Assembly (NCBI GenBank): GCA_016934535.1
Contig: JAFGSQ010000016.1
Coordinates: forward strand, 70,685 to 134,684
DNA length: 64,000 bases
Direction: 5' to 3'
DNA from: a candidate division WOR-3 bacterium
Lineage (GTDB): Bacteria > SDB-A
The translations under genes were made by a program, and so were the position numbers. Positions within the stretch are counted from its first letter, which is position 1. Each line of letters starts with the position of its first letter. Under the pieces are notes generated by a model. The model did not search any database. It saw only the letters and a list, made by a program, of their open reading frames with translations, and had not been told where the DNA came from. This document shows, piece by piece, positions 6,047 through 31,733 of the stretch.

Positions 6047-6820
6047 ATGAAAATCGCATCCTGGAATGTAAATTCGCTTAAAATGCGTGCCGAATACCTT
6101 CACATCTGGCTCGAAAAAAATGACGTCGATATCATCCTTCTTCAGGAGATAAAAACCACCGACGATAAATTTCCAGTCTCATTTTTTCAAGAAGTCGGCT
6201 ACAGATCATATTATTACGGTCAGAAATCATACAACGGAGTGGCGATCCTTTCAAAAATGACTTTGGAAAATGTCGTCAAGGGGCTTGACGGATATCTTGA
6301 AGAAGAAAAAAGGTTCATATCAGCACAGTTAGGTGATTTTGTCTTTGCCAGCGTTTACGTCCCCAACGGTAAGTCTCCCGAAGACCCGGCTTTTAAAATT
6401 AAGCTCTCTTTTCTCGAAAAACTGAAAAACCATCTGGTAGGCATTCCCAAACCAAATACTGTAGTCGGAGGCGATTTCAACGTGGCTGTTCGGGACATTG
6501 ACGTTTGGGATCCCGTTTACCTCGACGGCTCTATCTGTTTCCACAGTTCTGAAAGACAGAGAATGCAGGCTATTCTAGACAGCGGTTTTGTGGACTCTTT
6601 CGCGAAAACCCATCCCGACAAACAGTCATTCTCTTGGTGGGACTACCGCGACGGAGCTTTTCATAAGAATCACGGTATGAGGCTTGATTATATCCTTGTA
6701 TCCGAAAACCTGTCCGATAGGATCGTCTCAAGTTCTATAGACAGGGAATCGAGGAAAAAAGCGGGAGAGTTGAAACCTTCGGATCACTCTCCCGTTCTGA
6801 TTGAAATCAGGGAGCGATGA
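6047..6820 (+). CDS. xth: exodeoxyribonuclease III
   Basis: The N-terminus (MKIASWNVNSL), the catalytic D/N/H motifs and the C-terminal SDHSPV all match the Xth/APE1 family. Confidence 0.9.
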   Translation: MKIASWNVNSLKMRAEYLHIWLEKNDVDIILLQEIKTTDDKFPVSFFQEVGYRSYYYGQKSYNGVAILSKMTLENVVKGLDGYLEEEKRFISAQLGDFVFASVYVPNGKSPEDPAFKIKLSFLEKLKNHLVGIPKPNTVVGGDFNVAVRDIDVWDPVYLDGSICFHSSERQRMQAILDSGFVDSFAKTHPDKQSFSWWDYRDGAFHKNHGMRLDYILVSENLSDRIVSSSIDRESRKKAGELKPSDHSPVLIEIRER

Positions 6821-7316
6821 TTTCCAGAAGCGCTTCCGTCACTTTTGCCTGAATCTCTGCATTTTCAGGATTTGACAAGTGACTCGCTATCCATATAAAT
6901 TCGTCTTCGGTCATGGAGTACTTTCTGTAAATGTTTTTTTCGGATTCAGTAAAATTTCCCCCGACCGTTATGTTGTTGTAATTGTCTACGATTTCTTTAT
7001 TATTTGTTTTAAAAGCTGAATCCGCGAGTTGTTCATACGTTACTCCAAGACTGTCCAGATAATTTTTTCCCGCTTCCGCTCTCTGCTGTATAAGCGAGTT
7101 TATGTCTTTCGCGCACATAATATATCTTTCAGACATATCTTCAGTAATTATTCCGTCCGCCGGAGGCGTGAAGACTACGTCCATGGTGTCTACTGTGATG
7201 GTGTCTATTGCGCCGTTGACTCCTGCCAGGGTCGAGTCTCCTGAGTCACCGGGTTTTTGACTGCACGATAACAATGTTAAAACAGTCAGGATAACTGCTG
7301 TGTAAACTCTTTTCAC
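6807..7316 (-). CDS. hypothetical lipoprotein
   Basis: It has a signal peptide with a lipobox (LLSCS). I recognise no family. Confidence 0.5.
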   Translation of the reverse strand: MKRVYTAVILTVLTLLSCSQKPGDSGDSTLAGVNGAIDTITVDTMDVVFTPPADGIITEDMSERYIMCAKDINSLIQQRAEAGKNYLDSLGVTYEQLADSAFKTNNKEIVDNYNNITVGGNFTESEKNIYRKYSMTEDEFIWIASHLSNPENAEIQAKVTEALLEIIAP

Positions 7317-7362: not shown

Positions 7363-7818
7363 TTACCATATTTTGTTGAAAGAATCCATACATCCGAAAT
7401 ATTTTTCGTAATCAGGCCCTACGATAATAGTGACGTCGTGCATGCAGTTTTTCTTTATCTCGACGAGAGGAGGAGATATCGAGGAAGCCCGGCAAAGGAT
7501 TTTAGCGTTTCTGCCGGTTGAATCTTTTCTATCGACGACGAATGATCTGTCGAGTTCGGGTTCATACCAATTGTCAATCCTGATTACGTCGAATATGAAT
7601 AAAGTTTCGTTGAACAACACTCTTGTGGATTTTAGTGTGTCAGCGACGTATCTGCCGAGAGCGTCTTTTCCTGTTCCGTTAAGTATTTCAACCAGCACCG
7701 TGTCCTGCGGATACTGAGAATAATCTGCGTACGGATTTTCAGTTTGCAACCTGATTTTCGGAGGTTTGCTGCAGGACAGCAAAAGGATTAAAACAACTAT
7801 CGGTAAATTTTTTTTCAC
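7363..7818 (-). CDS. lipoprotein, possibly with a LytR_C-like domain
   Basis: It has a lipobox (LLSCS). The VLVEILNGTGKDALG...V pattern resembles the LytR C-terminal domain. Confidence 0.45.
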   Translation of the reverse strand: MKKNLPIVVLILLLSCSKPPKIRLQTENPYADYSQYPQDTVLVEILNGTGKDALGRYVADTLKSTRVLFNETLFIFDVIRIDNWYEPELDRSFVVDRKDSTGRNAKILCRASSISPPLVEIKKNCMHDVTIIVGPDYEKYFGCMDSFNKIW

Positions 7819-8738
7819 GCGGTTTCACCGTTTTTCAAAACAAAGTCTTTTAAATGGCAATGCGGACCCACGACGCAATTTTCGCCAATTTTTGTTTTTC
7901 CGGTCAGGTACGCGAAAGGGTGGATCACCGACCCCGCCCCTATATCAACCTCGTAATCGATGACAGTATTCTCTGGAGACGTTATTGTGACGCCTTTCTT
8001 CATCAGTTCGTTCATTTTGTCATTTCTTACCAAGGAGCTCAGAATTGAAAGTTCGGCCCTGTCGTTAGCTCCCTGAAATTCTGAAGAATCGCTGGCAATT
8101 GAATACATGACTCTCACTCTTTTCTTATTCAATATCCGGATCGTGTCGGTTAGATAATACTCTTTCTGATCGTTTTCCGGCTTCACTTCAGCGAGGGATT
8201 CAAACAGCATTTTCCTTTCGCAGATCATGATTCCAGTGTTGACAAGTTTTATAAGTTTTTCAGAATCGTTTGCATCTCTGGCTTCCCTGATGGCCGACAA
8301 ATTCTCGCCTTCAGTTATCAGTCTGCCGTACGAACCTGGTTTATCGAGCTTCATACCGAGAATAGAGGCAGTCGCTTTTTCGGACCGAAGAATAAAATCC
8401 TCCAGCGTTTTAGCTTTAACCAGAGGCACGTCTCCGTAAAGCACCAAAATTCTCATGGATCCTGAAAACATCTTTTCTGTCTGCAGAACTGCGTGACCGG
8501 TGCCCAGCTGTGGTTTCTGTTCGACAAATTCCAGGGGTCTTGATTTGAAAAATTCCATAATCAGATCGCCCCCTTTTCCGATTACAACCACCGTTTTATC
8601 AGGATGTAATCTATCCGCCTGATCCAAAACATAACAGAGCATAGGATATCCCGCCACTTCGAGCAGAGCTTTGGGTGTTTCCGACTTCATTCTTTTGCCT
8701 TCACCCGCGGCAAGTATTACAACGCCTAAGCCGTTCAT
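7815..8738 (-). CDS. glmU: GlmU-like UDP-GlcNAc pyrophosphorylase, truncated (uridyltransferase domain only, acetyltransferase beta-helix absent)
   Basis: The N-terminus (GVVILAAGEGKRMKS, LGTGHA, YGDVPL) is collinear with E. coli GlmU residues about 1-307. The ORF stops after about two hexapeptide turns, and the next gene is an unrelated lipoprotein. Confidence 0.8.
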   Translation of the reverse strand: MNGLGVVILAAGEGKRMKSETPKALLEVAGYPMLCYVLDQADRLHPDKTVVVIGKGGDLIMEFFKSRPLEFVEQKPQLGTGHAVLQTEKMFSGSMRILVLYGDVPLVKAKTLEDFILRSEKATASILGMKLDKPGSYGRLITEGENLSAIREARDANDSEKLIKLVNTGIMICERKMLFESLAEVKPENDQKEYYLTDTIRILNKKRVRVMYSIASDSSEFQGANDRAELSILSSLVRNDKMNELMKKGVTITSPENTVIDYEVDIGAGSVIHPFAYLTGKTKIGENCVVGPHCHLKDFVLKNGETA

Positions 8739-12392: not shown

Positions 12393-13955
12393 ATGTTTAT
12401 TCTCGGATCTGAACAAATAAAAGAGGCAGACAGAAAGGCGATCGAAGAGACGGGAATTCACCCTCTCGCGATGATGGAAAATGCCGGAAGAGCCGTGGCT
12501 GTCGCGGCAATAAATAATTGGAATTTACATGACTGCGATGAAGTCTTAATTCTAGCAGGAAAAGGGAACAACGGCGGTGACGCCTTGGTTTGCGCAAGGT
12601 TTTTAACCAATTTTGGGATCAAAACAAATGTTTTTTGTGTTTTCGATCCTTCTCTATTCTCAAAAGATGCGGAAATTCAGTACGGGATACTCAAAAGAAT
12701 CGGAATAACCTTGAATGAACTCTCTGTGTCAAATTTTAAAGAAAAATTTGAAGACAGTCTTTTTAACTCGCACCTTGTGATAGACGGAATTTTCGGGACG
12801 GGATTCAAAGGTCCGGTCACGGGTTTGCCTTCGGTTATCATTGATTCGGTCAACAAAGCTAAAAAGCCGGTACTTTCAATCGACATACCAAGCGGAGTCA
12901 ATTCTGACGACGGTTCTGTGAAAGGGACAGCCGTGAGAGCCAGTATCACAGTTACTTTCGCCTGCCCGAAAAAAGGACACTTCTCTATATCAGGAAAAGA
13001 ACATTCCGGAAGAATAATAGTCGCCGATATAGGATTACCAGGATCAATCGTCGAACAGCTTCACGATTCAGAACTCCTGACAACTGACTACGTCAGAAAA
13101 GTCATACCGGCCAGAAATGACACATGGCACAAGGGACAGTTCGGTAAAATACTCGTTGTCGGCGGGTCTGCATGCATGCCGGGAGCCCCTTTCCTCGCGG
13201 GCAAAGCGGCCTTCAAGACCGGAGCAGGTTTCGTCACTCTCGCCGTGCCGTCTGATATAATCGGCAATCCGTTCGGTTTTGAAGAGGCGACTTACTTCTG
13301 CGCGAACGACGGACCGTATCTGACCATGAAAGGTGCGAAAAGAATAATCGAACTGTCGGAGAATTACGACGCGGCCGTAATTGGTCCCGGCCTCGGCAGG
13401 GAAAAAGAAACCGCTTCAGCCGCCGCGGAAATACTGCTCGAATCAAAAATTCCGGCTGTCGTCGACGCTGACGCCCTGCATGCTGTTGTCCCTTTTCTGA
13501 AGAATGTCTCCGGGAGAAAACACACTGTGCTGACACCGCATTTAGGTGAATTCAGCGCTTTGACAGGACTCCCTACTGAAGAAATTAATAAGGATCCGGC
13601 CGGCCAAGTTCTGCGTTTTGCAGAAAAATACTCACTTACAATTCATTTGAAAGGTCCTCTCGGGAGAGTGACTTGCGGCAGTACATTGATGACCGCTGTG
13701 AATCCGGTGATGGAAAGCGCTCTCGCCACAGCTGGAAGCGGCGACGTTCTTTCGGGCATAATCGCCGCTCTCCTTGGAAAAACTTTTGACGCTTTCAAAA
13801 GCACCGGAGCAGGAGTTTTTATACACGCAGTATCCGGGATTATTGCGAGAGAAAAGTTTTATGCCGTTACTGCTTCCGACATTTACCGAAGTATTCCGGA
13901 CGCGATAAAAGCCGTCATAGAAAACAGAGACTTCGGATTTATAGATACAATTTAA
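12393..13955 (+). CDS. nnr: bifunctional NAD(P)H-hydrate epimerase / ADP-dependent dehydratase
   Basis: It has a YjeF-N domain (LAGKGNNGGDALV) and a YjeF-C carbohydrate-kinase domain (GSGDVLSG). Confidence 0.85.
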   Translation: MFILGSEQIKEADRKAIEETGIHPLAMMENAGRAVAVAAINNWNLHDCDEVLILAGKGNNGGDALVCARFLTNFGIKTNVFCVFDPSLFSKDAEIQYGILKRIGITLNELSVSNFKEKFEDSLFNSHLVIDGIFGTGFKGPVTGLPSVIIDSVNKAKKPVLSIDIPSGVNSDDGSVKGTAVRASITVTFACPKKGHFSISGKEHSGRIIVADIGLPGSIVEQLHDSELLTTDYVRKVIPARNDTWHKGQFGKILVVGGSACMPGAPFLAGKAAFKTGAGFVTLAVPSDIIGNPFGFEEATYFCANDGPYLTMKGAKRIIELSENYDAAVIGPGLGREKETASAAAEILLESKIPAVVDADALHAVVPFLKNVSGRKHTVLTPHLGEFSALTGLPTEEINKDPAGQVLRFAEKYSLTIHLKGPLGRVTCGSTLMTAVNPVMESALATAGSGDVLSGIIAALLGKTFDAFKSTGAGVFIHAVSGIIAREKFYAVTASDIYRSIPDAIKAVIENRDFGFIDTI

Positions 13956-15943
13956 TGAATTTTAGCAAAAACAGAAAATATTATTTCGTTTCAGCGTTTT
14001 TAGCCCTGGCGATACTGATCTTTTTTTCTTTTTTTTCAAAATCACTGCTTATAAAATCTGTCGACAAAATCCTTCGATCACGCGGAGTCGAAGCCTCACG
14101 GATCGCATTCCGGTTCCCTCTATTTTTTACTCTCAAAGACGTGAAATTTACAGAGGCAAACAGATTTGAAGGCGGATACGCGGAAGAAATTTCTTTCGCG
14201 CTTTCCCTACCGGATCCGGGAAAGATAAAGTTTTTATCTGTCGAAGATTTCCGAATTCCGTTTGCCAGCCGGATGAAAACAGGTGAAAGCGGAGATATTT
14301 CAGTTTCCGGCAGAAATATTCCTGACGAAATAAGACTGAAAAACGGGATCATAGAATTTTCAGGGCGTGAAATTATTGTGGATTCTTTTTCAGTGAAAAC
14401 GCAAGAAGATTCTCTCACGGGATATTTCAGTTCTTCTGGATCATTTTGCACTATTAACCTGCGTGATTCATCCGGAGTCTATCTTTTGTCAGCGCGGTCC
14501 AAAGACACTATAAAAATCTCTGAATACATGAACTTAAGCGGCTTCTCACTGAAAGCTGAAATTACAAGCGGTTCAATAAAAGGAAGCGTAAGAGGGAACT
14601 TTTCGACTTCGTTTTTCGGCGGGATCGAAACAACCTTAGAAGATAAAATCGAGATTGATTTTTCAGCTTCCCCCGCTGTCTTCTCACTTCCCAACAGAGG
14701 TGTTCGTGTCTCGACCAGTGAAGACTGTCTGATGATATCAGCCGACAGTTTCTTTTCACCGATCAAACCTCACGAAAAATTCGAGATAATATCATACAGC
14801 GTTTCCGGAAATTTGAGATTTTGCATAAAAGAAGGATTGTTCCTCGTAGATGCCGACTCTCTGAAAGTTTCAAACCTTCGGGTTCATTCACGTTTCATCT
14901 GCCGGGACACAGTGACTTTCAGCAGTTTGAACATACCATTGGCGCGGCTGTCGATTTCCTTTGATGACAGTTTAGTCGAAATTGACACTTTTGTCTTCGC
15001 TTTAGACAATTCTGATGTTTCGATCAACGGTTTTGTTGATTATTCCGACTCAGTGAGACTCCGGATTTCTTTCTGCGGAGAAAAAATCTCAGTCGAGGAC
15101 ATCATCAACTTTGTACCTGATGAACTTCTTCCGAATCTTTCCGGAATAAGCGGAAGAGGAGATTTCGATGTCTCGGGATATTTTTATTACGTTTCCTGCT
15201 TTCCAGAAAGCACAGATTTCGGCATCGGTTCTGTTTTCCGTGGAGTGTCAATAGATCACTTCGGACCGAAAATAGACATGGACACTTTTTCAAGACCTTT
15301 CGTCGCCACCGTCAGGATCGGTTCTTCGAAAGGTGAAAAGATAGCTCTCGGTATTCACAACCCGAATTTTGTGCCCATTGAAAATTTGCCCCAGTCTCTC
15401 ATCGGCGCCGTACTGGTTTGCGAAGACGGATCGTTTTTCAGCCACAGGGGATTCAGTCTTTTCCATATAAGAAGAGCCATGAGAGAAAACCTCAGCGCCG
15501 GCAGATACATAAGCGGCGGAAGCACTATAACGATGCAGTTGGCCAGAAATCTATTCCTGTCGGACGAAAGAAGCCTTTCAAGAAAACTCGAAGAAGCGGT
15601 GCTCACCTGGCAGTTGGAAAAACACCTCTCAAAGAAAAGAATACTTGAAATTTATCTGAATATTATCGAATTCGGTCCCGGAATCAGAGGAGTACAGGAG
15701 GCGTCAAAAGAATATTTCGGAACTGACGCCTCAAATCTTGATCCTCTTCAATCAGCGTATTTCGCCAGTATTATACCAAACCCCAGAAGATATTATCAGA
15801 TTCAATTCGAAAGAGGCTCCATCTCGCCGTACTGGCACCAGAAACTTGTCAGAATTATGGAACTGGAACTGGCAAGAAATTACATCGATTCAACCGCTTT
15901 CGACAGTTTCTCCGCAATTGATTTGGAATTCATTGATCGATAA
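13955..15943 (+). CDS. membrane protein with a large N-terminal beta-rich domain fused to a C-terminal GT51 peptidoglycan transglycosylase (MtgA-like) domain
   Basis: The C-terminal 200 aa carries the GT51 motifs EDGSFFSHRG, GGSTITMQLARN and RKLEEAVLTWQLEKHLSKKRILEIYLN. It has an N-terminal TM helix followed by a roughly 420-aa repetitive region of unknown function. Confidence 0.75.
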   Translation: MNFSKNRKYYFVSAFLALAILIFFSFFSKSLLIKSVDKILRSRGVEASRIAFRFPLFFTLKDVKFTEANRFEGGYAEEISFALSLPDPGKIKFLSVEDFRIPFASRMKTGESGDISVSGRNIPDEIRLKNGIIEFSGREIIVDSFSVKTQEDSLTGYFSSSGSFCTINLRDSSGVYLLSARSKDTIKISEYMNLSGFSLKAEITSGSIKGSVRGNFSTSFFGGIETTLEDKIEIDFSASPAVFSLPNRGVRVSTSEDCLMISADSFFSPIKPHEKFEIISYSVSGNLRFCIKEGLFLVDADSLKVSNLRVHSRFICRDTVTFSSLNIPLARLSISFDDSLVEIDTFVFALDNSDVSINGFVDYSDSVRLRISFCGEKISVEDIINFVPDELLPNLSGISGRGDFDVSGYFYYVSCFPESTDFGIGSVFRGVSIDHFGPKIDMDTFSRPFVATVRIGSSKGEKIALGIHNPNFVPIENLPQSLIGAVLVCEDGSFFSHRGFSLFHIRRAMRENLSAGRYISGGSTITMQLARNLFLSDERSLSRKLEEAVLTWQLEKHLSKKRILEIYLNIIEFGPGIRGVQEASKEYFGTDASNLDPLQSAYFASIIPNPRRYYQIQFERGSISPYWHQKLVRIMELELARNYIDSTAFDSFSAIDLEFIDR

Positions 15944-17103: not shown

Positions 17104-18492
17104 TTGATTTACTCTCATCCATGGGATAAAATGCTCATTATGCTTAACCATCTTCTTGTGTTCTTTTTTCTCACTTCTGCCGTTAATTCGTCGAAAATTG
17201 ACGGCTTTATAAGATCTTTGGGACCAGTACATTCAGGTATTCATTGCGTCAACACTAAAACGGGTGAATCAGTTTATTCTTACAACCAGGATTTCCTGTT
17301 CGTGCCGGCTTCGGTTCAGAAACTTCTGACGGTAGCGGGATCGTTTTTCATACTCGGCACCGATTACAGATTTTCGACCTATCTCCTCTGCGATTCTATC
17401 AGATCCGACACCGTTTACAATCTCGTTTTAAGAGGATCGGGAGATCCTTCGTTAGATTTAAAATCCATAGAACTCCTCGTCAAACACCTGAAATCCATTG
17501 ACATTAATAATATTCAAGGAGATATTTGCACGTATTCACGCGATCTCGACACACTTCCTCTCGGCGTCGGCTGGATGTGGGACGAAGGTTATTACGCTTA
17601 CAGTGCGAGAATTTCGGCTTTGAGCTGCTGTGGGAATTACGTTACTGTCAAAGCTGCCGTGACTGATGGAAGGATAACTTATGACATAATGCCGAAATCT
17701 GACTTCGTCGAATTGGTAAATCTTCTCGCTCCGGGAACCGAAAACAAATACACCGTCGAAAGATACTTCGACGGAGAAATTAACATCATTGTACTCTCCG
17801 GTACTCTCAAAACCCCTATCGAGAGAACAGTGAATTTGGAAAGGCCGGACCTTTTCACGGGACACCTATTTATGAGAGCCGCAATCGAAAGCGGGATATC
17901 CTTCCAAGGAATGGTACGATCCATACAGACCCTGCCTGCAGTTTATGAAACGGCTGCTGTTTTTGTATCCCCGCCTCTTTTCGCCCTGTCAGACAGCATA
18001 TTGAATTACAGTCTCAATCTCTCGTCAGAACTATTGTTGAGAAAGATTGCCTCTCTGAACTCTTTGGGAGCGTCTTCTCTCGAAGGCATATCCCTCATTT
18101 TCCAGAAATTCAGTTATTTAGGCCTCTCAACGTCAGGTATTGTGTCAAAAGACGGTTGTGGTCTGTCGAGATACAATCTTCTTTCACCAAGATTCCTGAC
18201 TTCTCTTCTCTCTCTGATGTTAAAACAACCCGGTACGTCTAATCTTTTTTTCAATTGCCTTCCGATAATGGGCAGGGAGGGCACCGTGAACAACAGACTT
18301 CGCAGAATTTCTGAAGACAGAGCGAGAGCAAAAACTGGAACTTTGTCAGGCATATCAACTATAGCCGGCTACATTGTAACGAAAAGGCAGGACACTCTTT
18401 CTTTCGCTATTATGATGAATAATTTTTCTATATCCCAAAACCAGATAAAAAATGTTCAGGACAGTATTATCCTCGAACTGATGAACTACTGA
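17104..18492 (+). CDS. dacB: D-alanyl-D-alanine carboxypeptidase/endopeptidase, PBP4 (peptidase S13) family
   Basis: It has the SVQK (SxxK) and KTGT motifs and S13-like organisation throughout. Confidence 0.8.
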   Translation: MIYSHPWDKMLIMLNHLLVFFFLTSAVNSSKIDGFIRSLGPVHSGIHCVNTKTGESVYSYNQDFLFVPASVQKLLTVAGSFFILGTDYRFSTYLLCDSIRSDTVYNLVLRGSGDPSLDLKSIELLVKHLKSIDINNIQGDICTYSRDLDTLPLGVGWMWDEGYYAYSARISALSCCGNYVTVKAAVTDGRITYDIMPKSDFVELVNLLAPGTENKYTVERYFDGEINIIVLSGTLKTPIERTVNLERPDLFTGHLFMRAAIESGISFQGMVRSIQTLPAVYETAAVFVSPPLFALSDSILNYSLNLSSELLLRKIASLNSLGASSLEGISLIFQKFSYLGLSTSGIVSKDGCGLSRYNLLSPRFLTSLLSLMLKQPGTSNLFFNCLPIMGREGTVNNRLRRISEDRARAKTGTLSGISTIAGYIVTKRQDTLSFAIMMNNFSISQNQIKNVQDSIILELMNY

Positions 18493-18493
18493 A

Positions 18494-19669
18494 ATGAACT
18501 CACTGGTGCTTTTCGAGAAAGACAGAGACAATTTTTACCCCCTTTCCCTTTCAAGGCACGTATCGGATCTAATTACAGGTTATTTTACTTTTTCGGAGGG
18601 TTTCAGACGCCTGTACGATTTGTGCGAAATCACTTTATTATCTCCCGCTTACATGGAAGAACACCTCAGAGAATCTCATCCCGCTTTCCGAATTAACGAA
18701 GAACAGCAGTATTCCCTATATCTTCGCGCCTCTATTTTGCCCGAAAAAAAAATTAAAAAACAAATATCGTTGGACGGACCCGAAGAAGCCTTCACCTGCG
18801 AAGGAAGTGTTATCGGATTCAGAGGATCCCCTGACACTGCAAAAATGTTTTTTAAGGAAGGCTTGACCCCCAAAAACATGCCTGTCAGGGAAGTTGAAGC
18901 GCAGGTTTTCAATAGCGTGTGTGATATCGTCGAAGGCAATGCTTTGTCGCTTGAAAGAAATTTTACACGCGGAGCTCTGAACGGCGAGATAGCAGGAACG
19001 GCTAAACTCATATCGCCCGAAAAGATATTTGTCGGCGCAAATTCGACAGTTGAAGATTATGTTCTTATCGACGCGAGGAAAGGTCCCGTTCACATAAGCG
19101 AAGGAGTAGAAATTAAATCCCACAGCGTTGTGGCCGGTCCGGTTTACATAGGACATGGTACTCTTGTAAAACCATTCACTCACATACTCAACGGATGCAG
19201 TTTCGGTCCTCAGTGCAGACTGAGCGGAGAAATATCAAAATCGCTGTTTATCGGATACTCAAACAAACAGCACTCCGGTTTTTTGGGCAATTCATACGTT
19301 GGAGAGTGGGTCAATTTCGGAGCCGGAACGACAAACTCAAACCTCAAGAATAACTATTCCGAGATCACCGTGCATTATAAAGGTGAATTTCACCGGACAG
19401 GAATGACTTTTTTGGGCCTGCTCTGCGGAGACCACGTCAAAACAGCCATTGGCACTCTCTTCAACACAGGAACGACTGTAGGCTTGGGCGCCAACATCTT
19501 CAAACCAGGTTTGACGGATAAATGTATTCCATCTTTAAGCTGGGGACCCGGAGAAAAGTATTCATTTGACAAATTCCTGAAAACAGCTGAAACCGTCATG
19601 TCGAGGAGAGAAAGAAAATTGACGGATTCATACGGAGAAATGCTCGAACACATATTCATAAATTCATGA
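18494..19669 (+). CDS. hexapeptide-repeat (left-handed beta-helix) protein with a degenerate N-terminal nucleotidyltransferase-like domain; GlmU-like, possibly acetyltransferase
   Basis: The C-terminal third has hexapeptide repeats (GEWVNFGAGTTNSN...GLGANI). The N-terminus is a diverged sugar-nucleotidyltransferase fold lacking the GxGxR motif. It is translationally coupled to the PAP2 gene (ATGA). Confidence 0.6.
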   Translation: MNSLVLFEKDRDNFYPLSLSRHVSDLITGYFTFSEGFRRLYDLCEITLLSPAYMEEHLRESHPAFRINEEQQYSLYLRASILPEKKIKKQISLDGPEEAFTCEGSVIGFRGSPDTAKMFFKEGLTPKNMPVREVEAQVFNSVCDIVEGNALSLERNFTRGALNGEIAGTAKLISPEKIFVGANSTVEDYVLIDARKGPVHISEGVEIKSHSVVAGPVYIGHGTLVKPFTHILNGCSFGPQCRLSGEISKSLFIGYSNKQHSGFLGNSYVGEWVNFGAGTTNSNLKNNYSEITVHYKGEFHRTGMTFLGLLCGDHVKTAIGTLFNTGTTVGLGANIFKPGLTDKCIPSLSWGPGEKYSFDKFLKTAETVMSRRERKLTDSYGEMLEHIFINS

Positions 19670-20202
19670 AAATCCTTCTCCTGTCTTTTTTTTTTCTTTT
19701 TTGTTTTAACAGTTTGTGTTCATTCGACCCTGACCGTCGGGTAACCGAAACCGTAAGAAACAAACTCTCTTCTCCCTTGTCTCAAAATTTAATGGAATAT
19801 ACTACAAAACTCGGGGACGGCAGGACAGTTCTTCTAACTTCCACAGTCATGTCTTTTGGTGATGAAAAAATGAGAAGGTGCGGCGAGCTTTCGATGGCAT
19901 CTTTCGCCGTTTCCGGAATACTTACCGTCGGCATAAAATACGCTGTGAACAGACAAAGACCCAACGGCGGCACCAGCTCTTTCCCATCGGGTCATACTTC
20001 CACCGCTTTTTCCTGGGCCGCGGTTGTTTCCAGCGAATATCCTCAATACAGTATTCCGGTTTTCGCAGTCGCCGGATTAGTTGGTGTTTCGAGAATAGCT
20101 TTGGATAAGCACTGGACTTCCGATGTAATCGCAGGAGCAGTCATAGGATATTTTTCGGGTTTGTTTATCGAAAAGATTTCCTGCTGGATAACGGATTATT
20201 GA
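19666..20202 (+). CDS. PAP2-family phosphatase (membrane)
   Basis: It has the three PAP2 motifs: KYAVNRQRP, PSGHTS and SRIALDKHWTSD. Confidence 0.8.
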   Translation: MKILLLSFFFLFCFNSLCSFDPDRRVTETVRNKLSSPLSQNLMEYTTKLGDGRTVLLTSTVMSFGDEKMRRCGELSMASFAVSGILTVGIKYAVNRQRPNGGTSSFPSGHTSTAFSWAAVVSSEYPQYSIPVFAVAGLVGVSRIALDKHWTSDVIAGAVIGYFSGLFIEKISCWITDY

Positions 20203-21041
20203 AAAACCTCGCATATAAAAAATTCCTGCCTTATTTAATTGTAACAAGGCCGTTAAACCTTGTCATAATCGCCGCAGCAGTTTATTTGGGATTTGCAGTC
20301 ACTTCTAACGCTTTTGTGCCTTCTGTCCGCCAAACAATTTTATTCGTGCCAATTATCCTTCTAGCCGCCGCGGGATACTGCATCAACGATGTTCTTGACA
20401 TGAAAGAAGACAAAATCAACAAACCTGATCGAGTTCTCGTCAGAAAAGCCGTGTCTAAAAAGACTTGCACTATTTACGCCCTGGTACTTACAGCTTTTTC
20501 TGTTGCTATTTCTCTTCATGATATGACTCTTGCTGTCGTAAACACCACTTTGATAGTCTTCGTTCTAGCGTACAATTTTTTTCTTAAAAAAACACCCCTC
20601 GCAGGAAACTTTACGACGGCAATTCTTTCATCTTTCCCCGTAATTTGGGGAAGTTATATTGGAGGTACTGTAAATCTCGACATTATATATATCGCTGTCC
20701 TCGCCTTTATCCTTCACTTTACCCGTGAAATAGTAAAGGACATTGAAGATATCAAAGGAGACTCACTCGCAGGTAAAAACACAACGGCGGTCTTTTTCGG
20801 AGCAAAAATATCGGTTTTGCTCGCTTCTTTTCTGATTTTATTATCCTGTGTAATGGCGATTTTTGTTTTTACATATCTTTTTAGAATATCTGTCTGCTCA
20901 ACTTTTTCTTCCGCAATTGTTACTTTATCATTGATGTTCAGTTTGTTTGCTTTGTTGAGGGCAAAATTTCCGATTGCTTCAAAATCCATCAGAATCTCAA
21001 TGATTCTGTGTGTCTTCTGTCTGTTTTTCCTCTACTTATAA
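20199..21041 (+). CDS. UbiA-family integral membrane prenyltransferase (TTG start overlapping the PAP2 stop)
   Basis: It has the NDVLDMKEDKINKPDR Asp-rich motif (NDxxDxxxD) and a second D-rich motif (KDIEDIKGD). It is about 280 aa with 8-9 TM segments. Confidence 0.8.
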   Translation: MKNLAYKKFLPYLIVTRPLNLVIIAAAVYLGFAVTSNAFVPSVRQTILFVPIILLAAAGYCINDVLDMKEDKINKPDRVLVRKAVSKKTCTIYALVLTAFSVAISLHDMTLAVVNTTLIVFVLAYNFFLKKTPLAGNFTTAILSSFPVIWGSYIGGTVNLDIIYIAVLAFILHFTREIVKDIEDIKGDSLAGKNTTAVFFGAKISVLLASFLILLSCVMAIFVFTYLFRISVCSTFSSAIVTLSLMFSLFALLRAKFPIASKSIRISMILCVFCLFFLYL

Positions 21042-21088: not shown

Positions 21089-22699
21089 TTACAAACCGAA
21101 CCAAACAAGCACTGCGTCGTAAATAGAAGCGATAGGTTCGTAATTAACCGCATCCCACTGCATGACTCTTCCTCCAAAACTAAAGGAAACAGATTTTATA
21201 TCCATCGACGGATTAGAATGAAAAACTCCAATCGGAGTTTCAGTCCATGGAACAGGTCCTATCCATTTGTAGATAACTGTAATATTTGGATCGGAAGTTC
21301 TTAGGTTTTCAACATAAGCTAATGCTGGATATACAGGTGGAATGTTATGAGTCATTTCAACATATAAAGTGTCCTGAGGAAGTCCGTATGTCGAAGCATA
21401 ACTGCTTGGAGCTGCTCCATCGAGTACCCAGTTTCCTGAACAATTCGTATAATATTCAACTCCCAGATATTTTTTTACAATAGTACCGCCAATACCGAAA
21501 GTATCAAGCTGATTAAAGAAATTCAAACCAAATGTCCACAACCTTCCACCGCAGTTAAGATAATCTTCAAGCGCCAGAGTATCTCTCGAAAAACCTGAAA
21601 TAAATGTACTCGGATCGTCGCGTACATAAATAACAAGCTTGGCGTTTTTGAGACTGTCTTTGGGTAAGACTCCACTATTTCTGTTAATGAATCTCACAGT
21701 TGTGTTGGGTCTTATTGTGTTGAAAAGGTCCACGTACCAGTTAAGATTATTATAAGTTTGGGTTGTTGCCATCAAAACGAGTATTTCTCCAGCATCAAGA
21801 TTCGGATTTATTGTTCTGAACGCTAAAGAATCTACGTTGCTTTGGACATGGGATGCATTTCTGCCCTGTAAATAAAAAACGTGCAATCCATCATTCAGGT
21901 TCTGGGTCACTGTAATAAACGAATCACCTGCTGTGTTCGGATTCATATCGGTCCATTCTGACCAGATGTCATTATCAATTTTATATCTATACCCGATAGG
22001 CATGTTCCATTCTGGATTGAGCGTATCAATTCTACTCCACCAGAACTGCAGGCCTTTCCATGACGGTGTGCTGTGATCAAGATAAAACATTACCGGTGTG
22101 TCTGTTTTGAACCAAAAATATGGCCTTGTTTCATCGTAATATTTTAGCAGACCAGAGTTTAAATCGTTTGCCATAGTGTCCGGTGGTACAATTTCTATCA
22201 CCGGTTTTTCACTATAAACACTCCATCCTCTTTGAGCTGGCATCGGATCTCTCATACCTTCGTCGTCGACAGCTCTGACGTAAAAATATCCCCTAAAATG
22301 CCATATCTCTCGGACATCGTAAAATGTGTCCGGTACTATTATTACCGTGTCAACAATTGTGTCGAGTACAATTAGCGAATCCGGGACATCGTCGACCGTA
22401 AGTTTCATCGTGTCGCTCGAAGCGAAAATCGAGTCCCAGCCTGTAATTTGGGAAGGATTGACTGAATCTCCTGACACAAACCATTCGTAATAAGCAACAA
22501 CTCCGTCTTCGTCTGTACCGTACCAATAAACCAGAGAAACAGCATTTATAGTGTCTATTCCGGGCGGTACATTGACGATGTAAGTTTCGGGCGGTTTGTT
22601 CTGATTAAGAGATCCAGTTGGGGCTGTGCTGCAACCCAACCAGAGTCCGGCGGCCAAAGCGGCCAGGACGAATAAAGTAGCAATAGTTGTTTTTCTCAT
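21089..22699 (-). CDS. large hypothetical lipoprotein (third gene of the three-lipoprotein operon)
   Basis: It has a lipobox (LWLGCS), is 536 aa and is rich in W/Y/N/D. I recognise no family. Confidence 0.55.
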   Translation of the reverse strand: MRKTTIATLFVLAALAAGLWLGCSTAPTGSLNQNKPPETYIVNVPPGIDTINAVSLVYWYGTDEDGVVAYYEWFVSGDSVNPSQITGWDSIFASSDTMKLTVDDVPDSLIVLDTIVDTVIIVPDTFYDVREIWHFRGYFYVRAVDDEGMRDPMPAQRGWSVYSEKPVIEIVPPDTMANDLNSGLLKYYDETRPYFWFKTDTPVMFYLDHSTPSWKGLQFWWSRIDTLNPEWNMPIGYRYKIDNDIWSEWTDMNPNTAGDSFITVTQNLNDGLHVFYLQGRNASHVQSNVDSLAFRTINPNLDAGEILVLMATTQTYNNLNWYVDLFNTIRPNTTVRFINRNSGVLPKDSLKNAKLVIYVRDDPSTFISGFSRDTLALEDYLNCGGRLWTFGLNFFNQLDTFGIGGTIVKKYLGVEYYTNCSGNWVLDGAAPSSYASTYGLPQDTLYVEMTHNIPPVYPALAYVENLRTSDPNITVIYKWIGPVPWTETPIGVFHSNPSMDIKSVSFSFGGRVMQWDAVNYEPIASIYDAVLVWFGL

Positions 22700-22714
22700 T
22701 TTCCCCCTCCTCGA

Positions 22715-23719
22715 TTACGGAGCCGCAAAATAATAAATCGAAGTGTGAAGAGCTATTCCGATAGCGGCCTGATACTGCGTTGACACATCGATGTATCCTC
22801 TTCTGCCCGACGGAGTGTGTCTTTGGAACCTTATTTCATAAACGTTGTTCTGTGCTCCTCTTATTTCGTCCATGATTCCCCAGACGCTCCCCATTGAAAG
22901 CTGATACTGATAATAGGCATCGGTGCCGAGAGACAACTGTTCGATGTTAGCCGTGTCGGGATTGTCACTGAACTTCAGAAAATATATCGGAACTCCTGCG
23001 GCGTTCGCGGCGTTTATCACAGCCTGTCTGTCTAATGGATCCTCATTATTAACACCGTCACCAAAAACTACTATACCTTTGTTTCCGCTCTGCCCCTGAA
23101 TCTCAGTTATCGCTCTATTTACGCCCCTGAACATTGCACTTCTCCCCCAATAGCTCGGGAAATCGGCTCCGGCTTCAAGAATCGTTATCGATTTCGTGAA
23201 ATCGGTTATGAGTGTGTCATAACTGTGGAATCCGATGATTGCTATGGAATCTCTGGGATCTTTCCAGTTTATGAAACGTTTGATGTATGTTGTTATGGTT
23301 GCATCGTAGGAGGCGACTGACGAAGACATGCTTCTCACAAGAACAATTGAATTGTAATCGTTTCCGCCAGTAGTGTTCAGCGTCCTCATAGTCATATCAT
23401 TGAAGAGAACGGCGTTAGTGTCTATGCTGCCGTCAGGTCTGTAAGACATTTCACGGACAGTGAAATTCGCTTTGTTGAGATTTTCGACGGATATATTTTC
23501 CTGCGTCTTAACGCTCACTCTCACTATTACGTCACCGCCCGAAAACTCGATGCCGAGAATCGAAGTTGTAATGCCTGTAGTCGAGCTGTCGTCTCTGTTT
23601 ATATAAGGAGGAATTGTTGGCGGTTGATCGATAACGCTTTTCGAGCAACCGGCGAAAACAGTCAAAAGCGAAATCAGAAACGTCAGAGATGTAAAAATTG
23701 TTCTGCCATTTATTTTCAT
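22715..23719 (-). CDS. lipoprotein with a vWA-like domain (degenerate MIDAS)
   Basis: It has a lipobox (FAGCS). The vWA-like alternation of strand and helix motifs is present (IVLVRSMSSS, IAIIGF, IVVFGDGVNN, VPIYFLKF), but the DxSxS Asp is replaced by Arg. Confidence 0.45.
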   Translation of the reverse strand: MKINGRTIFTSLTFLISLLTVFAGCSKSVIDQPPTIPPYINRDDSSTTGITTSILGIEFSGGDVIVRVSVKTQENISVENLNKANFTVREMSYRPDGSIDTNAVLFNDMTMRTLNTTGGNDYNSIVLVRSMSSSVASYDATITTYIKRFINWKDPRDSIAIIGFHSYDTLITDFTKSITILEAGADFPSYWGRSAMFRGVNRAITEIQGQSGNKGIVVFGDGVNNEDPLDRQAVINAANAAGVPIYFLKFSDNPDTANIEQLSLGTDAYYQYQLSMGSVWGIMDEIRGAQNNVYEIRFQRHTPSGRRGYIDVSTQYQAAIGIALHTSIYYFAAP

Positions 23720-23732
23720 CTGGTCCTCCGTA

Positions 23733-25603: not shown

Positions 25604-25695
25604 AGAATTCTTAATATATATTGTTATGATTTTGGTCCGGTATACTATATGTCCTTTAATAATCAGTTCAATTAAATCGAAACTCAGGGGGCGGC

Positions 25696-30429: not shown

Positions 30430-30454
30430 GGCGGCGCTCAGGCGCCGCCATTTT
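30430..30454. terminator. bidirectional rho-independent terminator between convergent genes
   Basis: A perfect hairpin (GGCGGCGC-tcag-GCGCCGCC) followed by ATTTT lies between the 29995..30423 gene and murA. Confidence 0.6.
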
Positions 30455-31733
30455 AAACTCTCTTAATTTTCAGGCCAAGATCAGACAATCTTCTGTCTAT
30501 GTTCTCGTAACCCCTGTCTATCTGATGGGCGTTGCTTATCACGCTTTTTCCTTCGGCAATTGAAGCCGCTATGAGAAGCGCCATCCCGGCTCTTATATCG
30601 GGACTCGACATGTATTGAGCCCTGAGTTTTGAAGGTCCTGTGATGACGGCTCTGTGTGGGTCGCAGAGAACTATTTTTGCACCCATCGACACGAGTTTGT
30701 CTACGAAGAACATCCTGCTTTCAAACATCTTCTCAAAAACAAGCACAGTTCCGCGCGAACCGGTTGCAGTGACAAGAGCAATGCTGGTAAGATCCGCCGG
30801 GAATCCGGGCCACGGACCGTCTGAAACCGTCGGTATCGCGTCTCCGAAATCAGTTTTTACGGCGAGTTCCTGGTTTTCAGGAACAGTGAGAATTCCGTCT
30901 TTGAACTCCGTTTCAATTCCGAGTTTTCTGAAACTTATCAAAACCGGTTCAACGTGATCTTTCTGAAGCGAGTCTATTTCAATTCTCCCGCCAGTAAGAG
31001 CCGCAAGAGCGACTACGCTGCCTGTTTCGATATAGTCGGGGCTTATTTCGGCCTCCGCTCCGTGAAGAGAGCCTTCACCCGTTATTTCAAGCCTGTTGGT
31101 TGAAATTCCCGATATAGAAGAACCCATTTTTACAAGCATTCCGCAAAGATCCTGAACGTGCGGTTCACACGCGGCGTTTTTTATCAAGGTCGTGCCTGAG
31201 GCGAGAGAAGCCGCCATCAAAGCGTTTTCAGTACCCGTCACGCTCGGTTCATCGAGGAAGATCTCCCGGCCCATGAGTTTCTTCTCTGCTTTGAGAACAT
31301 AAGCCGATCCGTCCCATTCTATTTTTGCCCCCATAGATCCCAGAGAAACGAAATGAGTGTCCAGTCTTCTTCTGCCTATCACATCTCCTCCCGGGGGAGG
31401 GAATCTCACGTATCCGTTGCGCGCCAAAAAAGGACCGGCCAGCAAAATGGATGCTCTTATCTTTGAACAGATTTCCGGATCGAGATCGAAATTGGTTATG
31501 CGGCGCGAATTCAATCTCAGCACGCCGTCTCCTTCCCATTCGCATTCTGCGCCTGCCAAACGAAGAAGATCTATCATGTACTGAACGTCTCTTATTACAG
31601 GCACATTTTTCAGCGTGACCTCTTCTTCAGTCAGGCAAGCCGCTGCGATCATAGGCAGAGCGGCGTTTTTGTTTCCTTTGGGTTTGAAAAAGCCTTCAAT
31701 CTTTGAAGGGCCTGTGATTTCGAATGAATCCAT
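30453..31733 (-). CDS. murA: UDP-N-acetylglucosamine 1-carboxyvinyltransferase
   Basis: It is MurA/EPSP-synthase fold throughout (KNAALPMIAA, LRLAGA). Confidence 0.9.
   Translation of the reverse strand: MDSFEITGPSKIEGFFKPKGNKNAALPMIAAACLTEEEVTLKNVPVIRDVQYMIDLLRLAGAECEWEGDGVLRLNSRRITNFDLDPEICSKIRASILLAGPFLARNGYVRFPPPGGDVIGRRRLDTHFVSLGSMGAKIEWDGSAYVLKAEKKLMGREIFLDEPSVTGTENALMAASLASGTTLIKNAACEPHVQDLCGMLVKMGSSISGISTNRLEITGEGSLHGAEAEISPDYIETGSVVALAALTGGRIEIDSLQKDHVEPVLISFRKLGIETEFKDGILTVPENQELAVKTDFGDAIPTVSDGPWPGFPADLTSIALVTATGSRGTVLVFEKMFESRMFFVDKLVSMGAKIVLCDPHRAVITGPSKLRAQYMSSPDIRAGMALLIAASIAEGKSVISNAHQIDRGYENIDRRLSDLGLKIKRV

What the first reader, a model, noticed from the sequence alone, without database searches (positions are those of the whole stretch)
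7815..8738. glmU is truncated to a uridyltransferase-only protein, and a separate GlmU-like hexapeptide protein sits in the PBP4 operon
The 307-aa product is collinear with E. coli GlmU residues 1 to about 307 and then stops after about two turns of the left-handed beta-helix. It therefore lacks the whole GlcN-1-P acetyltransferase active site, and the next gene is an unrelated lipoprotein with no remnant LbH coding in any frame. Elsewhere, at 18494..19669, a 391-aa protein combines a degenerate nucleotidyltransferase-like N-domain with a full LbH acetyltransferase-like domain. The two GlmU activities may be split between two proteins, or the organism may use an alternative route to UDP-GlcNAc.
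Basis: seen in the sequence. Interest (0 to 1): 0.6.

Follow-up and report, generated by a model that had tools for sequence, protein, structure and literature searches.

The report
Naturally split two-protein GlmU enzyme
In this uncultured WOR-3 bacterium, the normally fused enzyme that makes the cell-wall precursor UDP-GlcNAc is divided: a shortened GlmU keeps only the uridyl-transfer half, and an archaeal-like "alternative GlmU" in a cell-wall operon most likely supplies the acetyl-transfer half. The arrangement is real and conserved, but it is a variant of split-GlmU arrangements already reported.

Summary
ORF 7815..8738(-) encodes a 307-aa GlmU that matches the GlmU profile only over positions 3-302 of 452. 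It keeps every uridyltransferase residue, the helical arm and about three turns of the beta-helix, and ends before the acetyltransferase site.

It is not an assembly artefact. All six closest homologues are 306-307 aa. Three genomes show the same 4-bp overlap with the downstream lipoprotein gene. No C-domain remnant exists in any frame.

ORF 18494..19669(+) is a full member of NCBIfam TIGR03991 ("alt_bact_glmU"). Its beta-helix keeps the catalytic Glu/His/Asn and the acetyl-CoA loop of GlmU and archaeal ST0452. Its N-domain has a nucleotidyltransferase-like fold but none of the canonical motifs, and it is further degenerated in this clade. All three resolvable genomes of the clade carry both genes, and MurA in the window shows that UDP-GlcNAc is needed.

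Best reading: a two-protein GlmU, with acetylation by alt-GlmU and uridylylation by the truncated GlmU. N-only GlmUs and split GlmUs are already published, and TIGR03991 is a curated family. What is new is this particular pairing and the pseudo-enzyme N-domain. I could not search the rest of the genome, and no biochemistry exists. Interest is moderate.

The parts
7815..8738 (-). Truncated glmU (307 aa): GlcNAc-1-P uridyltransferase only.
   Evidence: TIGR01173 at 305.9 bits, profile positions 3-302 of 452. All uridyltransferase residues are invariant in alignment A1. Best PDB hits are GlmUs, including the engineered E. coli Tr331, 1fwy/1fxj.
8061..8738 (-). Uridyltransferase (Rossmann-like) domain, residues 1-226.
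   Evidence: AF2 pLDDT is mostly above 90. R16, K23, Q74, G79, T80, D103, Y137, G138, E152, N167, E193, N225 are invariant in A4.
7992..8060 (-). Long helical arm, residues 227-249.
   Evidence: Helix 227-247 in the model. It aligns with the arm of E. coli GlmU.
7818..7991 (-). Left-handed beta-helix stub, residues 250-307, about three turns. Probably the trimerisation element.
   Evidence: Pfam Hexapep hit at 266-296. The model has 8-9 short strands with pLDDT 59-69. Within-clade identity is 53%, against 57% for the catalytic domain. Translation checked.
7363..7818 (-). 151-aa lipoprotein gene translationally coupled to glmU (GTGA overlap). It is unrelated to GlmU.
   Evidence: The same 4-bp overlap occurs in L002 and L076. 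Weak LytR_C hit below cutoff.
18494..19669 (+). alt-GlmU (TIGR03991), 391 aa: proposed GlcN-1-P N-acetyltransferase with a pseudo-nucleotidyltransferase N-domain.
   Evidence: TIGR03991 at 324.9 bits, cutoff 225.3, covering 3-388 of profile 394. AF2 pLDDT 93.8. Foldseek best match is ST0452 at TM 0.64.
18494..18973 (+). alt-GlmU N-domain, residues 1-160: nucleotidyltransferase-like fold without catalytic motifs.
   Evidence: Pfam NTP_transf_4. No GxGTR loop or PK motif. No profile similarity to the GlmU N-domain, E = 0.31. Only 9 of 22 family-conserved positions are kept.
18986..19528 (+). alt-GlmU left-handed beta-helix acetyltransferase domain, residues 165-345. The catalytic His260 codon is at 19271-19273.
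   Evidence: phmmer against ST0452 (2ggo/5z09), E = 3e-19, with H308 matching H260. hhalign against the GlmU C-domain gives probability 98.4, with E349/H363/N377 matching E246/H260/N274. Invariant columns in A2 and A3. Translation checked.
19529..19669 (+). alt-GlmU C-terminal helical tail, residues 346-391, with invariant W350, R371, R372.
17104..18492 (+). PBP4 (D-Ala-D-Ala carboxypeptidase/endopeptidase), immediately upstream of alt-GlmU in the same operon.
   Evidence: Peptidase_S13 at 1.4e-64. TIGR00666 at 193 bits. Adjacency is conserved in L002.
19666..20202 (+). PAP2 phosphatase (undecaprenyl-diphosphatase-like), overlapping alt-GlmU by 4 bp.
30453..31733 (-). MurA, the first committed consumer of UDP-GlcNAc. 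It shows the product is required.
   Evidence: TIGR01072 at 459.4 bits, cutoff 392.7.

Best explanation
The last two steps of UDP-GlcNAc synthesis, normally done by one fused GlmU, are carried out here by two separately encoded proteins of different ancestry.

- **Step 1 (inferred):** the 391-aa alt-GlmU (TIGR03991), as a beta-helix trimer, transfers acetyl from acetyl-CoA to GlcN-1-P. It uses His260 as the general base, as His363 of E. coli GlmU and His308 of ST0452 do.
- **Its N-domain (inferred):** this domain keeps a nucleotidyltransferase-like fold but is a pseudo-enzyme and does not uridylylate.
- **Step 2 (strongly inferred from complete residue conservation and from the active engineered E. 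coli Tr331):** the 307-aa truncated GlmU converts GlcNAc-1-P + UTP to UDP-GlcNAc. It keeps about three beta-helix turns under selection, probably to stay trimeric.
- **Downstream:** the product feeds MurA and peptidoglycan synthesis.

The truncated gene is a stable, selected gene. It is not a pseudogene or an assembly error.
For: **Truncated GlmU**
- It matches only the first two-thirds of the GlmU profile.
- R18, K25, Q76, G81, T82, D105, Y139, G140, E154, N169, E195, T199, N227 (E. coli numbering) are invariant or nearly so.
- The closest solved relatives are GlmUs, including the uridyltransferase-only construct 1fwy/1fxj.
- Tr331 has uridyltransferase activity only (PMC4358021, citing Pompeo 2001).
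- Six homologues are 306-307 aa and form one clade.
- Synteny and the 4-bp overlap are identical in L002 and L076.
- The stub is 53% conserved, against 57% for the catalytic domain.
- There is no C-domain remnant.

**alt-GlmU**
- It scores above the TIGR03991 cutoff.
- Its LbH aligns to the ST0452 acetyltransferase domain at E = 3e-19 and to the GlmU C-domain at probability 98.4. The mapping is E349/H363/N377/G379-A380-G381 to E246/H260/N274/G276-A277-G278.
- These residues are invariant across 66 family members.
- The N-domain has no GxGTR loop or PK motif and no profile similarity to the GlmU N-domain.
- The clade keeps only 9-12 of 22 family-conserved N-domain positions, but 57-64 of 72 in the C part.

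**Co-occurrence and context**
- Both genes occur in the window, in CAYNIW01 (L002/L007) and in JAFGIG01 (L006/L076).
- alt-GlmU sits in a PBP4/PAP2 envelope operon, and MurA is in the window.
Against: - No enzymology exists for any TIGR03991 protein in the literature I could search.
- NCBIfam itself names the family bifunctional, as a hypothetical equivalog.
- The GlcN-1-P phosphate ligands R333 and K351 of E. coli GlmU are not conserved (L232, S248), and Y366 is F263. The sugar-phosphate substrate is therefore inferred, not shown.
- The N-domain is well conserved in most of the family (about 20 of 22 positions), so it has some function. A non-canonical nucleotidyltransferase activity cannot be formally excluded.
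- I could not examine the rest of the genome. A full-length glmU, a NagU/UAP-type enzyme or a GNA1-type route elsewhere is not excluded.
- Co-occurrence rests on only three genomes.
Confidence: 0.68

Rival explanations
1. alt-GlmU is truly bifunctional, as its NCBIfam name says. It makes UDP-GlcNAc alone, using a non-canonical nucleotidyltransferase N-domain. The truncated GlmU would then be a redundant or condition-specific second uridyltransferase, as NagU and GlmU are in S. aureus.
For: - TIGR03991 is annotated as diphosphorylase/acetyltransferase.
- The whole protein superposes on bifunctional ST0452.
- The N-domain is conserved in most family members, about 20 of 22 positions.
- Redundant uridyltransferases are documented.
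Against: - The family lacks the Gly-rich loop with catalytic Arg and the PK lysine.
- By secondary-structure correspondence, the segment equivalent to Q76-T82 is missing, and the position after beta-4 is NGR where GlmU has GD (inference).
- Profile comparison with the GlmU N-domain finds nothing.
- In this clade the N-domain has lost about half of the family-conserved residues, while the truncated GlmU keeps all catalytic residues.
- In Bacteroidetes a separate monofunctional uridyltransferase was shown to be essential in Capnocytophaga canimorsus, and monofunctional orthologues occur in 30 of 45 genera.
Confidence: 0.12
2. GlcNAc-1-P reaches the truncated GlmU by another route: salvage of environmental GlcNAc (auxotrophy, as proposed for Capnocytophaga), or a eukaryote-like route via GlcN-6-P acetylation and a mutase. 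alt-GlmU would then acetylate a different amino sugar for a surface glycan.
For: - Renzi et al. read monofunctional GlmU in Bacteroidetes as GlcNAc auxotrophy.
- The phosphate-binding residues R333 and K351 are not conserved in alt-GlmU.
- ST0452 also acts on GalN-1-P (my own knowledge of the ST0452 literature, not tested here).
- No glmS, glmM or nag genes are in the window.
Against: - alt-GlmU's closest characterised relatives by sequence and fold are GlcN-1-P acetyltransferase domains.
- It is embedded in a peptidoglycan operon, PBP4 and PAP2, downstream of MltG and a transglycosylase.
- It co-occurs with the truncated GlmU.
- Absence of glm/nag genes from 64 kb says nothing about the genome.
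Confidence: 0.15
3. The short glmU is a pseudogene, frameshift or misassembly of a normal bifunctional gene.
For: A single MAG contig, taken alone, cannot exclude this.
Against: - The same 306-307-aa length occurs in six homologues at 47-63% identity.
- One relative is seen on 24 or more independently assembled contigs.
- The GTGA overlap with the next gene is conserved in three genomes.
- No C-domain remnant exists in any frame.
- All catalytic residues are intact and the stub is conserved.
Confidence: 0.02

Closest known systems
E. coli GlmU-Tr331 (engineered truncation; PDB 1fwy/1fxj; Brown 1999, Pompeo 2001)
   Same: It is a GlmU N-terminal domain plus helical arm plus partial beta-helix, without the acetyltransferase site. 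It aligns over residues 4-303 at E = 7e-48. It has uridyltransferase activity only.
   Different: Tr331 is a laboratory construct of 331 aa. The window protein is a natural, conserved gene ending about 19 residues earlier, near E. coli residue 312.
GlmUCc (Ccan_15070) of Capnocytophaga canimorsus and its monofunctional orthologues in Bacteroidetes (PMC4358021)
   Same: It is a natural monofunctional GlcNAc-1-P uridyltransferase in an FCB-group bacterium.
   Different: C. canimorsus lacks the acetyltransferase activity and is a GlcNAc auxotroph. Here a candidate acetyltransferase (alt-GlmU) is present and co-inherited. I could not obtain the GlmUCc sequence for a direct comparison.
Truncated and separately encoded GlmU halves reported with NagU (bioRxiv 10.64898/2026.06.23.733835)
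   Same: The preprint reports N-only GlmU (Polystyrenella longa, with an 'unidentified acetyltransferase'), C-only GlmU, and both halves as separate genes (Wujia chipingensis).
   Different: Those cases were found in NagU-containing species, and their halves are fragments of canonical GlmU. Here the acetyltransferase partner belongs to a different, archaeal-like family (TIGR03991) with its own vestigial N-domain. No NagU is evident, although the full genome was not searched.
ST0452 / MJ1101 archaeal bifunctional sugar-1-P nucleotidylyltransferase/acetyltransferase (TIGR03992; PDB 2ggo, 5z09)
   Same: It is the best structural match to alt-GlmU over the full length, TM 0.64. The acetyltransferase domain aligns at E = 3e-19 with the catalytic His conserved.
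   Different: ST0452 has an active N-domain with the canonical signature. alt-GlmU lacks that signature and scores 97 bits against a cutoff of 292 for TIGR03992.
GMPPA in the GMPPA/GMPPB complex (PDB 7d72)
   Same: It also combines a nucleotidyltransferase-like domain with an LbH. According to the literature as I recall it (not tested here), its transferase domain is catalytically inactive and acts as a regulator. It appears among the fold hits.
   Different: This is only an analogy for a pseudo-enzyme N-domain. The match is weak (TM 0.37), and the GMPPA LbH is not an acetyltransferase.

Membership tests
Canonical bifunctional GlmU (TIGR01173) | N-terminal uridyltransferase domain with the L-x2-G-x-G-T-x-M-x4-P-K signature and the catalytic, sugar-binding and metal-binding residues. 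| tested here: met
   The signature reads LAAGEGKRMKSETPK. R18, K25, Q76, G81, T82, D105, E154, N169 and N227 equivalents are all present.
Canonical bifunctional GlmU (TIGR01173) | C-terminal LbH acetyltransferase active site (E. coli R333, E349, K351, H363, Y366, N377, and others). | tested here: not met
   The protein ends at about E. coli residue 312. No remnant lies downstream.
Canonical bifunctional GlmU (TIGR01173) | Whole-protein score at or above the curated cutoff. | tested here: not met
   305.9 bits against a cutoff of 366.85.
Monofunctional GlcNAc-1-P uridyltransferase (Tr331-like or GlmUCc-like) | Intact uridyltransferase residues and no acetyltransferase domain. | tested here: met
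Monofunctional GlcNAc-1-P uridyltransferase (Tr331-like or GlmUCc-like) | [quoted passage not shown] | not testable with these tools
   This needs an enzyme assay or complementation.
TIGR03991 alt_bact_glmU (for ORF 18494..19669) | Full-length match above the curated cutoff. | tested here: met
   324.9 bits against a cutoff of 225.3, covering protein 3-388 and profile 3-394 of 394.
TIGR03991 alt_bact_glmU (for ORF 18494..19669) | Acetyltransferase catalytic core: general-base His, Glu, Asn and the acetyl-CoA loop. | tested here: met
   E246, H260, N274 and G276-A277-G278 align to E. coli E349, H363, N377 and 379-381, and to ST0452 H308. They are invariant in 66 sequences.
TIGR03991 alt_bact_glmU (for ORF 18494..19669) | Diphosphorylase (nucleotidyltransferase) activity, as implied by the family name. 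| tested here: not met
   At sequence level there is no GxGTR loop, no PK lysine and no profile similarity to the GlmU N-domain. The window clade keeps 9-12 of 22 family-conserved N-domain positions. Actual activity is not testable here.
Archaeal bifunctional GlmU (TIGR03992; ST0452/MJ1101) | Score above cutoff, with both domains matching. | tested here: not met
   97.2 bits against a cutoff of 292.1, and only residues 183-335 match. The fold is similar over the full length.

The most novel reading that the evidence does not exclude
TIGR03991 proteins may be the 'unidentified acetyltransferase' that partners N-only GlmUs. Their conserved but non-catalytic N-domain would be a pseudo-enzyme module, either an allosteric sensor of a nucleotide sugar or a docking surface for the monofunctional uridyltransferase.

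In this WOR-3 clade the system would have evolved by reciprocal degeneration of two non-orthologous GlmU-type enzymes. The canonical GlmU lost its acetyltransferase half. The archaeal-like enzyme's N-domain decayed further. The result is an obligate two-protein GlmU, and possibly a physical complex in which the retained three-turn beta-helix stub matters.
Probability: 0.2. Interest if true: 0.6.

Novelty: new variant of a known kind. Interest (0 to 1): 0.4.

Why it matters
GlmU is treated as a universally essential, fused antibacterial target. Its apparent absence or truncation has been read as GlcNAc auxotrophy in Bacteroidetes (PMC4358021).

This locus shows that an N-only GlmU is stably co-inherited with a TIGR03991 protein whose acetyltransferase site is intact and whose transferase-like domain is vestigial. 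That gives three things:
- a concrete candidate for the 'unidentified acetyltransferase' invoked for N-only GlmU species;
- a caution against inferring amino-sugar auxotrophy, or bifunctionality, from annotation alone in FCB-group and candidate-phylum genomes;
- a simple experiment, complementation with the pair of genes versus each gene alone.

It does not reveal a new kind of pathway. The chemistry is the known GlmU chemistry, redistributed over two proteins.

Tried and rejected
1. **Frameshift or pseudogene:** rejected on comparative grounds.
2. **Split gene with the C-half as the next ORF:** rejected. The next ORF is a lipoprotein, and no LbH signal lies downstream.
3. **Whole-genome co-occurrence test:** I spent the single genome-contig scan on a concatenated query. 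The tool used six exact peptide patterns and mostly retrieved cyanobacterial GlmUs sharing 'ENDQKEYY'. It gave two clade genomes and a sample of N-only GlmUs, but no systematic co-occurrence. The window's own genome was not in the collection.
4. **Profile alignment of the alt N-domain to the GlmU N-domain, to map catalytic positions:** no significant alignment in global or local mode. The mapping after beta-4 (NGR versus GD) therefore rests only on the order of secondary-structure elements.
6. **Context of distant alt-GlmU homologues** (P0203, P0207, P0151, P0176, P0237): no conserved neighbourhood and no nearby glmU, glmM or glmS. This was uninformative.
7. **Literature searches** for TIGR03991, NTP_transf_4, PF13562 and 'GlmU-like' with Bacteroidetes: no papers.
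8. **Naming the taxa of the closest full-length GlmUs:** source names were truncated or absent.
9. **glmS, glmM or nag genes in the window:** none found. This says nothing about the genome as a whole.
Full report
**What is at the coordinates**

ORF 7815..8738 on the minus strand encodes a 307-aa protein. Pfam finds an NTP-transferase domain and one hexapeptide hit at residues 266-296. NCBIfam's GlmU equivalog model TIGR01173 matches at 305.9 bits, below its cutoff of 366.85, because only profile positions 3-302 of 452 are covered. Ten other GlmU models behave the same way. E. coli GlmU, fetched as L001, aligns by tblastn over residues 4-314.

In a 15-sequence alignment the protein ends at about E. 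coli residue 312. All residues known to bind UTP, Mg2+ and GlcNAc-1-P are invariant or nearly so: R18, K25, Q76, G81, T82, D105, Y139, G140, E154, N169, E195, T199 and N227. The assignment of roles to these residues is established knowledge of the GlmU structures.

An AlphaFold model (pLDDT 86.8) shows a confident Rossmann-like domain and the long helical arm (227-247). After that come 8-9 short strands, about three beta-helix turns, at lower confidence as expected for an element that normally packs in a trimer.

**The truncation is real and selected**

- The glmU stop overlaps the GTG start of the next gene by 4 bp (GTGA). That gene is a 151-aa lipoprotein with only a sub-threshold LytR_C hit.
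- tblastn with the C-terminal 150 residues of E. coli GlmU and five other full-length GlmUs finds nothing significant downstream in the glmU orientation. The only hit in 64 kb is the alt-GlmU gene at 19094-19498.
- The identical protein is present in both NCBI and Logan assemblies.
- The closest homologues (47-63% identity) are all 306-307 aa. The one listed at 291 aa has a 307-aa cluster mate, so that is a start-codon call.
- The relative P0004 was found on 24 or more contigs, and P0003 in MAG GCA_016929715.1. Both have the same gene order, panC-panD-glmU(307)-lipoprotein(151), and the same 4-bp overlap.
- Within the clade, the beta-helix stub is nearly as conserved as the catalytic domain (53% against 57% mean pairwise identity). 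This argues that the stub is functional. The most plausible role is trimerisation, by analogy with trimeric E. coli Tr331 (inference).
- In a neighbour-joining tree of the uridyltransferase domain (no support values), the six short proteins form one clade.
- A second set of 323-338-aa GlmUs (one member is named Deltaproteobacteria RBG_13_43_22) forms a separate clade, sister to normal 453-aa GlmUs.
- The genome scan also turned up 253-aa and 342-aa N-only GlmUs directly upstream of glmS in Thermodesulfobacteriota.

Loss of the GlmU C-domain has therefore happened repeatedly.

**The second protein**

ORF 18494..19669(+) starts 1 nt after PBP4 (Peptidase_S13, TIGR00666). It overlaps a PAP2 phosphatase gene by 4 bp, and that gene in turn overlaps a UbiA-family gene. 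Upstream on the same strand are ruvX, mltG, a YjeF-type gene, a transglycosylase-domain protein and a lipoprotein.

The protein is a full-length member of TIGR03991 "alt_bact_glmU" (324.9 bits, cutoff 225.3), which is a hypothetical-equivalog model. The family is widespread in the FCB group and some other lineages, judging from source names: Bacteroidota, Melioribacteraceae, Rhodothermaceae, Marinimicrobia, Zixibacteria, Latescibacteria, WOR-3, Margulisiibacteriota and Saganbacteria.

Its beta-helix domain aligns to the acetyltransferase domain of archaeal ST0452 at E = 3e-19, with ST0452 His308 opposite His260. It aligns to the GlmU C-domain by profile-profile comparison at probability 98.4. 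The mapping is E349 to E246, H363 to H260, N377 to N274, and G379-A380-G381 to G276-A277-G278. These positions are invariant in 66 family members. Three differences stand out: Y366 is Phe263, and the phosphate ligands R333 and K351 are Leu232 and Ser248, with Lys249 adjacent. The exact sugar-phosphate substrate is therefore inferred, not shown.

**The N-domain of alt-GlmU**

The AlphaFold model is confident (pLDDT 93.8) and superposes over its whole length on ST0452 (TM 0.64). The N-domain therefore has a nucleotidyltransferase-like fold.

At sequence level, however, the family reads I-x-I-F-E-D-x4-N-F-x-P-L-x3-R-P-V where canonical enzymes have L-A-G-G-x-G-T-R-L...P-K. Profile comparison with the GlmU N-domain finds nothing (E = 0.31).

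I compared the order of secondary-structure elements in the two models. The segment carrying Q76-T82 appears to be absent. The residues after beta-4 are N-G-R in the family (R-A-S in the window) where GlmU has the metal-binding G-D. This is my inference, not a computed superposition.

The window clade has diverged further. It keeps 9-12 of the 22 N-domain positions that are at least 80% conserved in the other 62 sequences (mean 19.9, sd 3.1). It keeps 57-64 of 72 in the acetyltransferase part (mean 68.3, sd 4.6). So the N-domain is best described as a pseudo-enzyme domain. In most of the family it retains some unknown, constrained role, and that role is relaxed in this clade. I cannot explain the relaxation.

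**Putting it together**

- Both genes are present in every genome of the clade that I could resolve: the window; CAYNIW01, where they lie about 10 kb apart on one contig in conserved synteny; and JAFGIG01, contigs 140 and 76.
- MurA is encoded in the window (TIGR01072, 459 bits), along with a Glu racemase, DapB, PBP4, MltG and a transglycosylase. The organism therefore makes peptidoglycan and needs UDP-GlcNAc.

The simplest account is a two-protein GlmU: alt-GlmU acetylates GlcN-1-P, and the truncated GlmU uridylylates GlcNAc-1-P. I put this at about 0.68. The uridyltransferase assignment is much firmer than the acetyltransferase substrate or the inactivity of the alt N-domain.

**Rivals**

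- **alt-GlmU is truly bifunctional and the truncated GlmU is redundant (about 0.12).** The missing motifs and the clade-specific decay argue against this.
- **GlcNAc-1-P comes from salvage or a eukaryote-like route, and alt-GlmU acts on another sugar (about 0.15).** This is possible because the genome could not be searched. The peptidoglycan operon context and the closest characterised relatives argue against it.
- **Artefact or pseudogene (about 0.02).** Effectively excluded.

**Comparison with what is known**

- Engineered E. coli Tr331 (PDB 1fwy/1fxj) is a uridyltransferase-only GlmU.
- Renzi et al. (PMC4358021) characterised a natural monofunctional uridyltransferase in Capnocytophaga. They found monofunctional orthologues in 30 of 45 Bacteroidetes genera and read this as auxotrophy.
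- A 2026 preprint (10.64898/2026.06.23.733835) reports N-only, C-only and separately encoded GlmU halves. For N-only species it explicitly invokes an "unidentified acetyltransferase".
- I found no paper on TIGR03991, NTP_transf_4 or PF13562.

The phenomenon of a split or truncated GlmU is therefore known, and both protein families are catalogued. What appears new is the specific pairing of an N-only canonical GlmU that retains a selected beta-helix stub with an archaeal-like TIGR03991 acetyltransferase carrying a vestigial transferase domain. The evidence that the NCBIfam "bifunctional" label is probably wrong, for this clade at least, also appears new. I rate it a new variant of a known kind, with interest 0.4.

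**Limits**

- No access to the rest of the genome.
- Co-occurrence rests on three genomes.
- No residue-level structural superposition.
- No biochemistry.

Noticed in passing
window 18494-18973 (alt-GlmU N-domain): The window clade has replaced about half of the N-domain residues that are strongly conserved in the rest of the TIGR03991 family: D9K, P22H, K36G, R51P, N78-G79-R80 to R-A-S, W143C, D156N. The acetyltransferase part stays near family level. Why the N-domain is conserved elsewhere and relaxed here is unexplained.
   Followed up: partly
window 20199-21041 (+): This UbiA-family prenyltransferase overlaps the PAP2 gene by 4 bp. Its best NCBIfam hits are archaeal-type prenyltransferase and geranylgeranylglycerol-phosphate geranylgeranyltransferase models (139.7 and 131.7 bits, both below cutoff). 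This could point to ether-lipid or polyprenyl chemistry linked to the envelope operon.
   Followed up: no
window 7363-7818 (-): This 151-aa lipoprotein is translationally coupled to the truncated glmU by a GTGA overlap, and the arrangement is conserved in L002 and L076. It has only a sub-threshold LytR_C hit (21.3 bits, cutoff 22.2). The following 169-aa gene (6807-7316) has no family hit at all.
   Followed up: partly
L014 2989-4017 and L046 2980-3741: Thermodesulfobacteriota MAGs carry N-only GlmUs of 342 aa and 253 aa directly upstream of glmS. A 323-338-aa clade (P0011, P0077 and others) is separate from the 307-aa clade in the tree. C-domain loss is therefore recurrent, and their acetyltransferase partner is unknown.
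   Followed up: partly
window 21089-24677 (-) and 24857-27540 (+): Three consecutive large proteins (536, 334 and 314 aa) have no Pfam hit. They sit next to a GT2 glycosyltransferase and a 614-aa TMEM260-like protein (protein O-mannosyltransferase-like). This may be a surface-protein glycosylation cluster.
   Followed up: no
window 13955-15943 (+): This 662-aa protein has a peptidoglycan transglycosylase domain only at residues 469-616, with no transpeptidase domain. Its N-terminal 450 residues are unannotated.
   Followed up: no
L002 / L007 (CAYNIW010000002.1): This MAG is labelled 'uncultured Desulfuromonadaceae bacterium', yet it is syntenic with the WOR-3 window across more than 20 kb and shares 59-67% identical proteins. 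The taxonomic label looks wrong. P0126, named 'Desulfuromonas sp. SDB', may be a similar case.
   Followed up: no
window 40656-42425 (-): This 589-aa protein has a Porphyromonas-type peptidyl-arginine/agmatine deiminase domain (PAD_porph, 1.7e-28) covering only residues 84-380. The flanking regions are unannotated.
   Followed up: no
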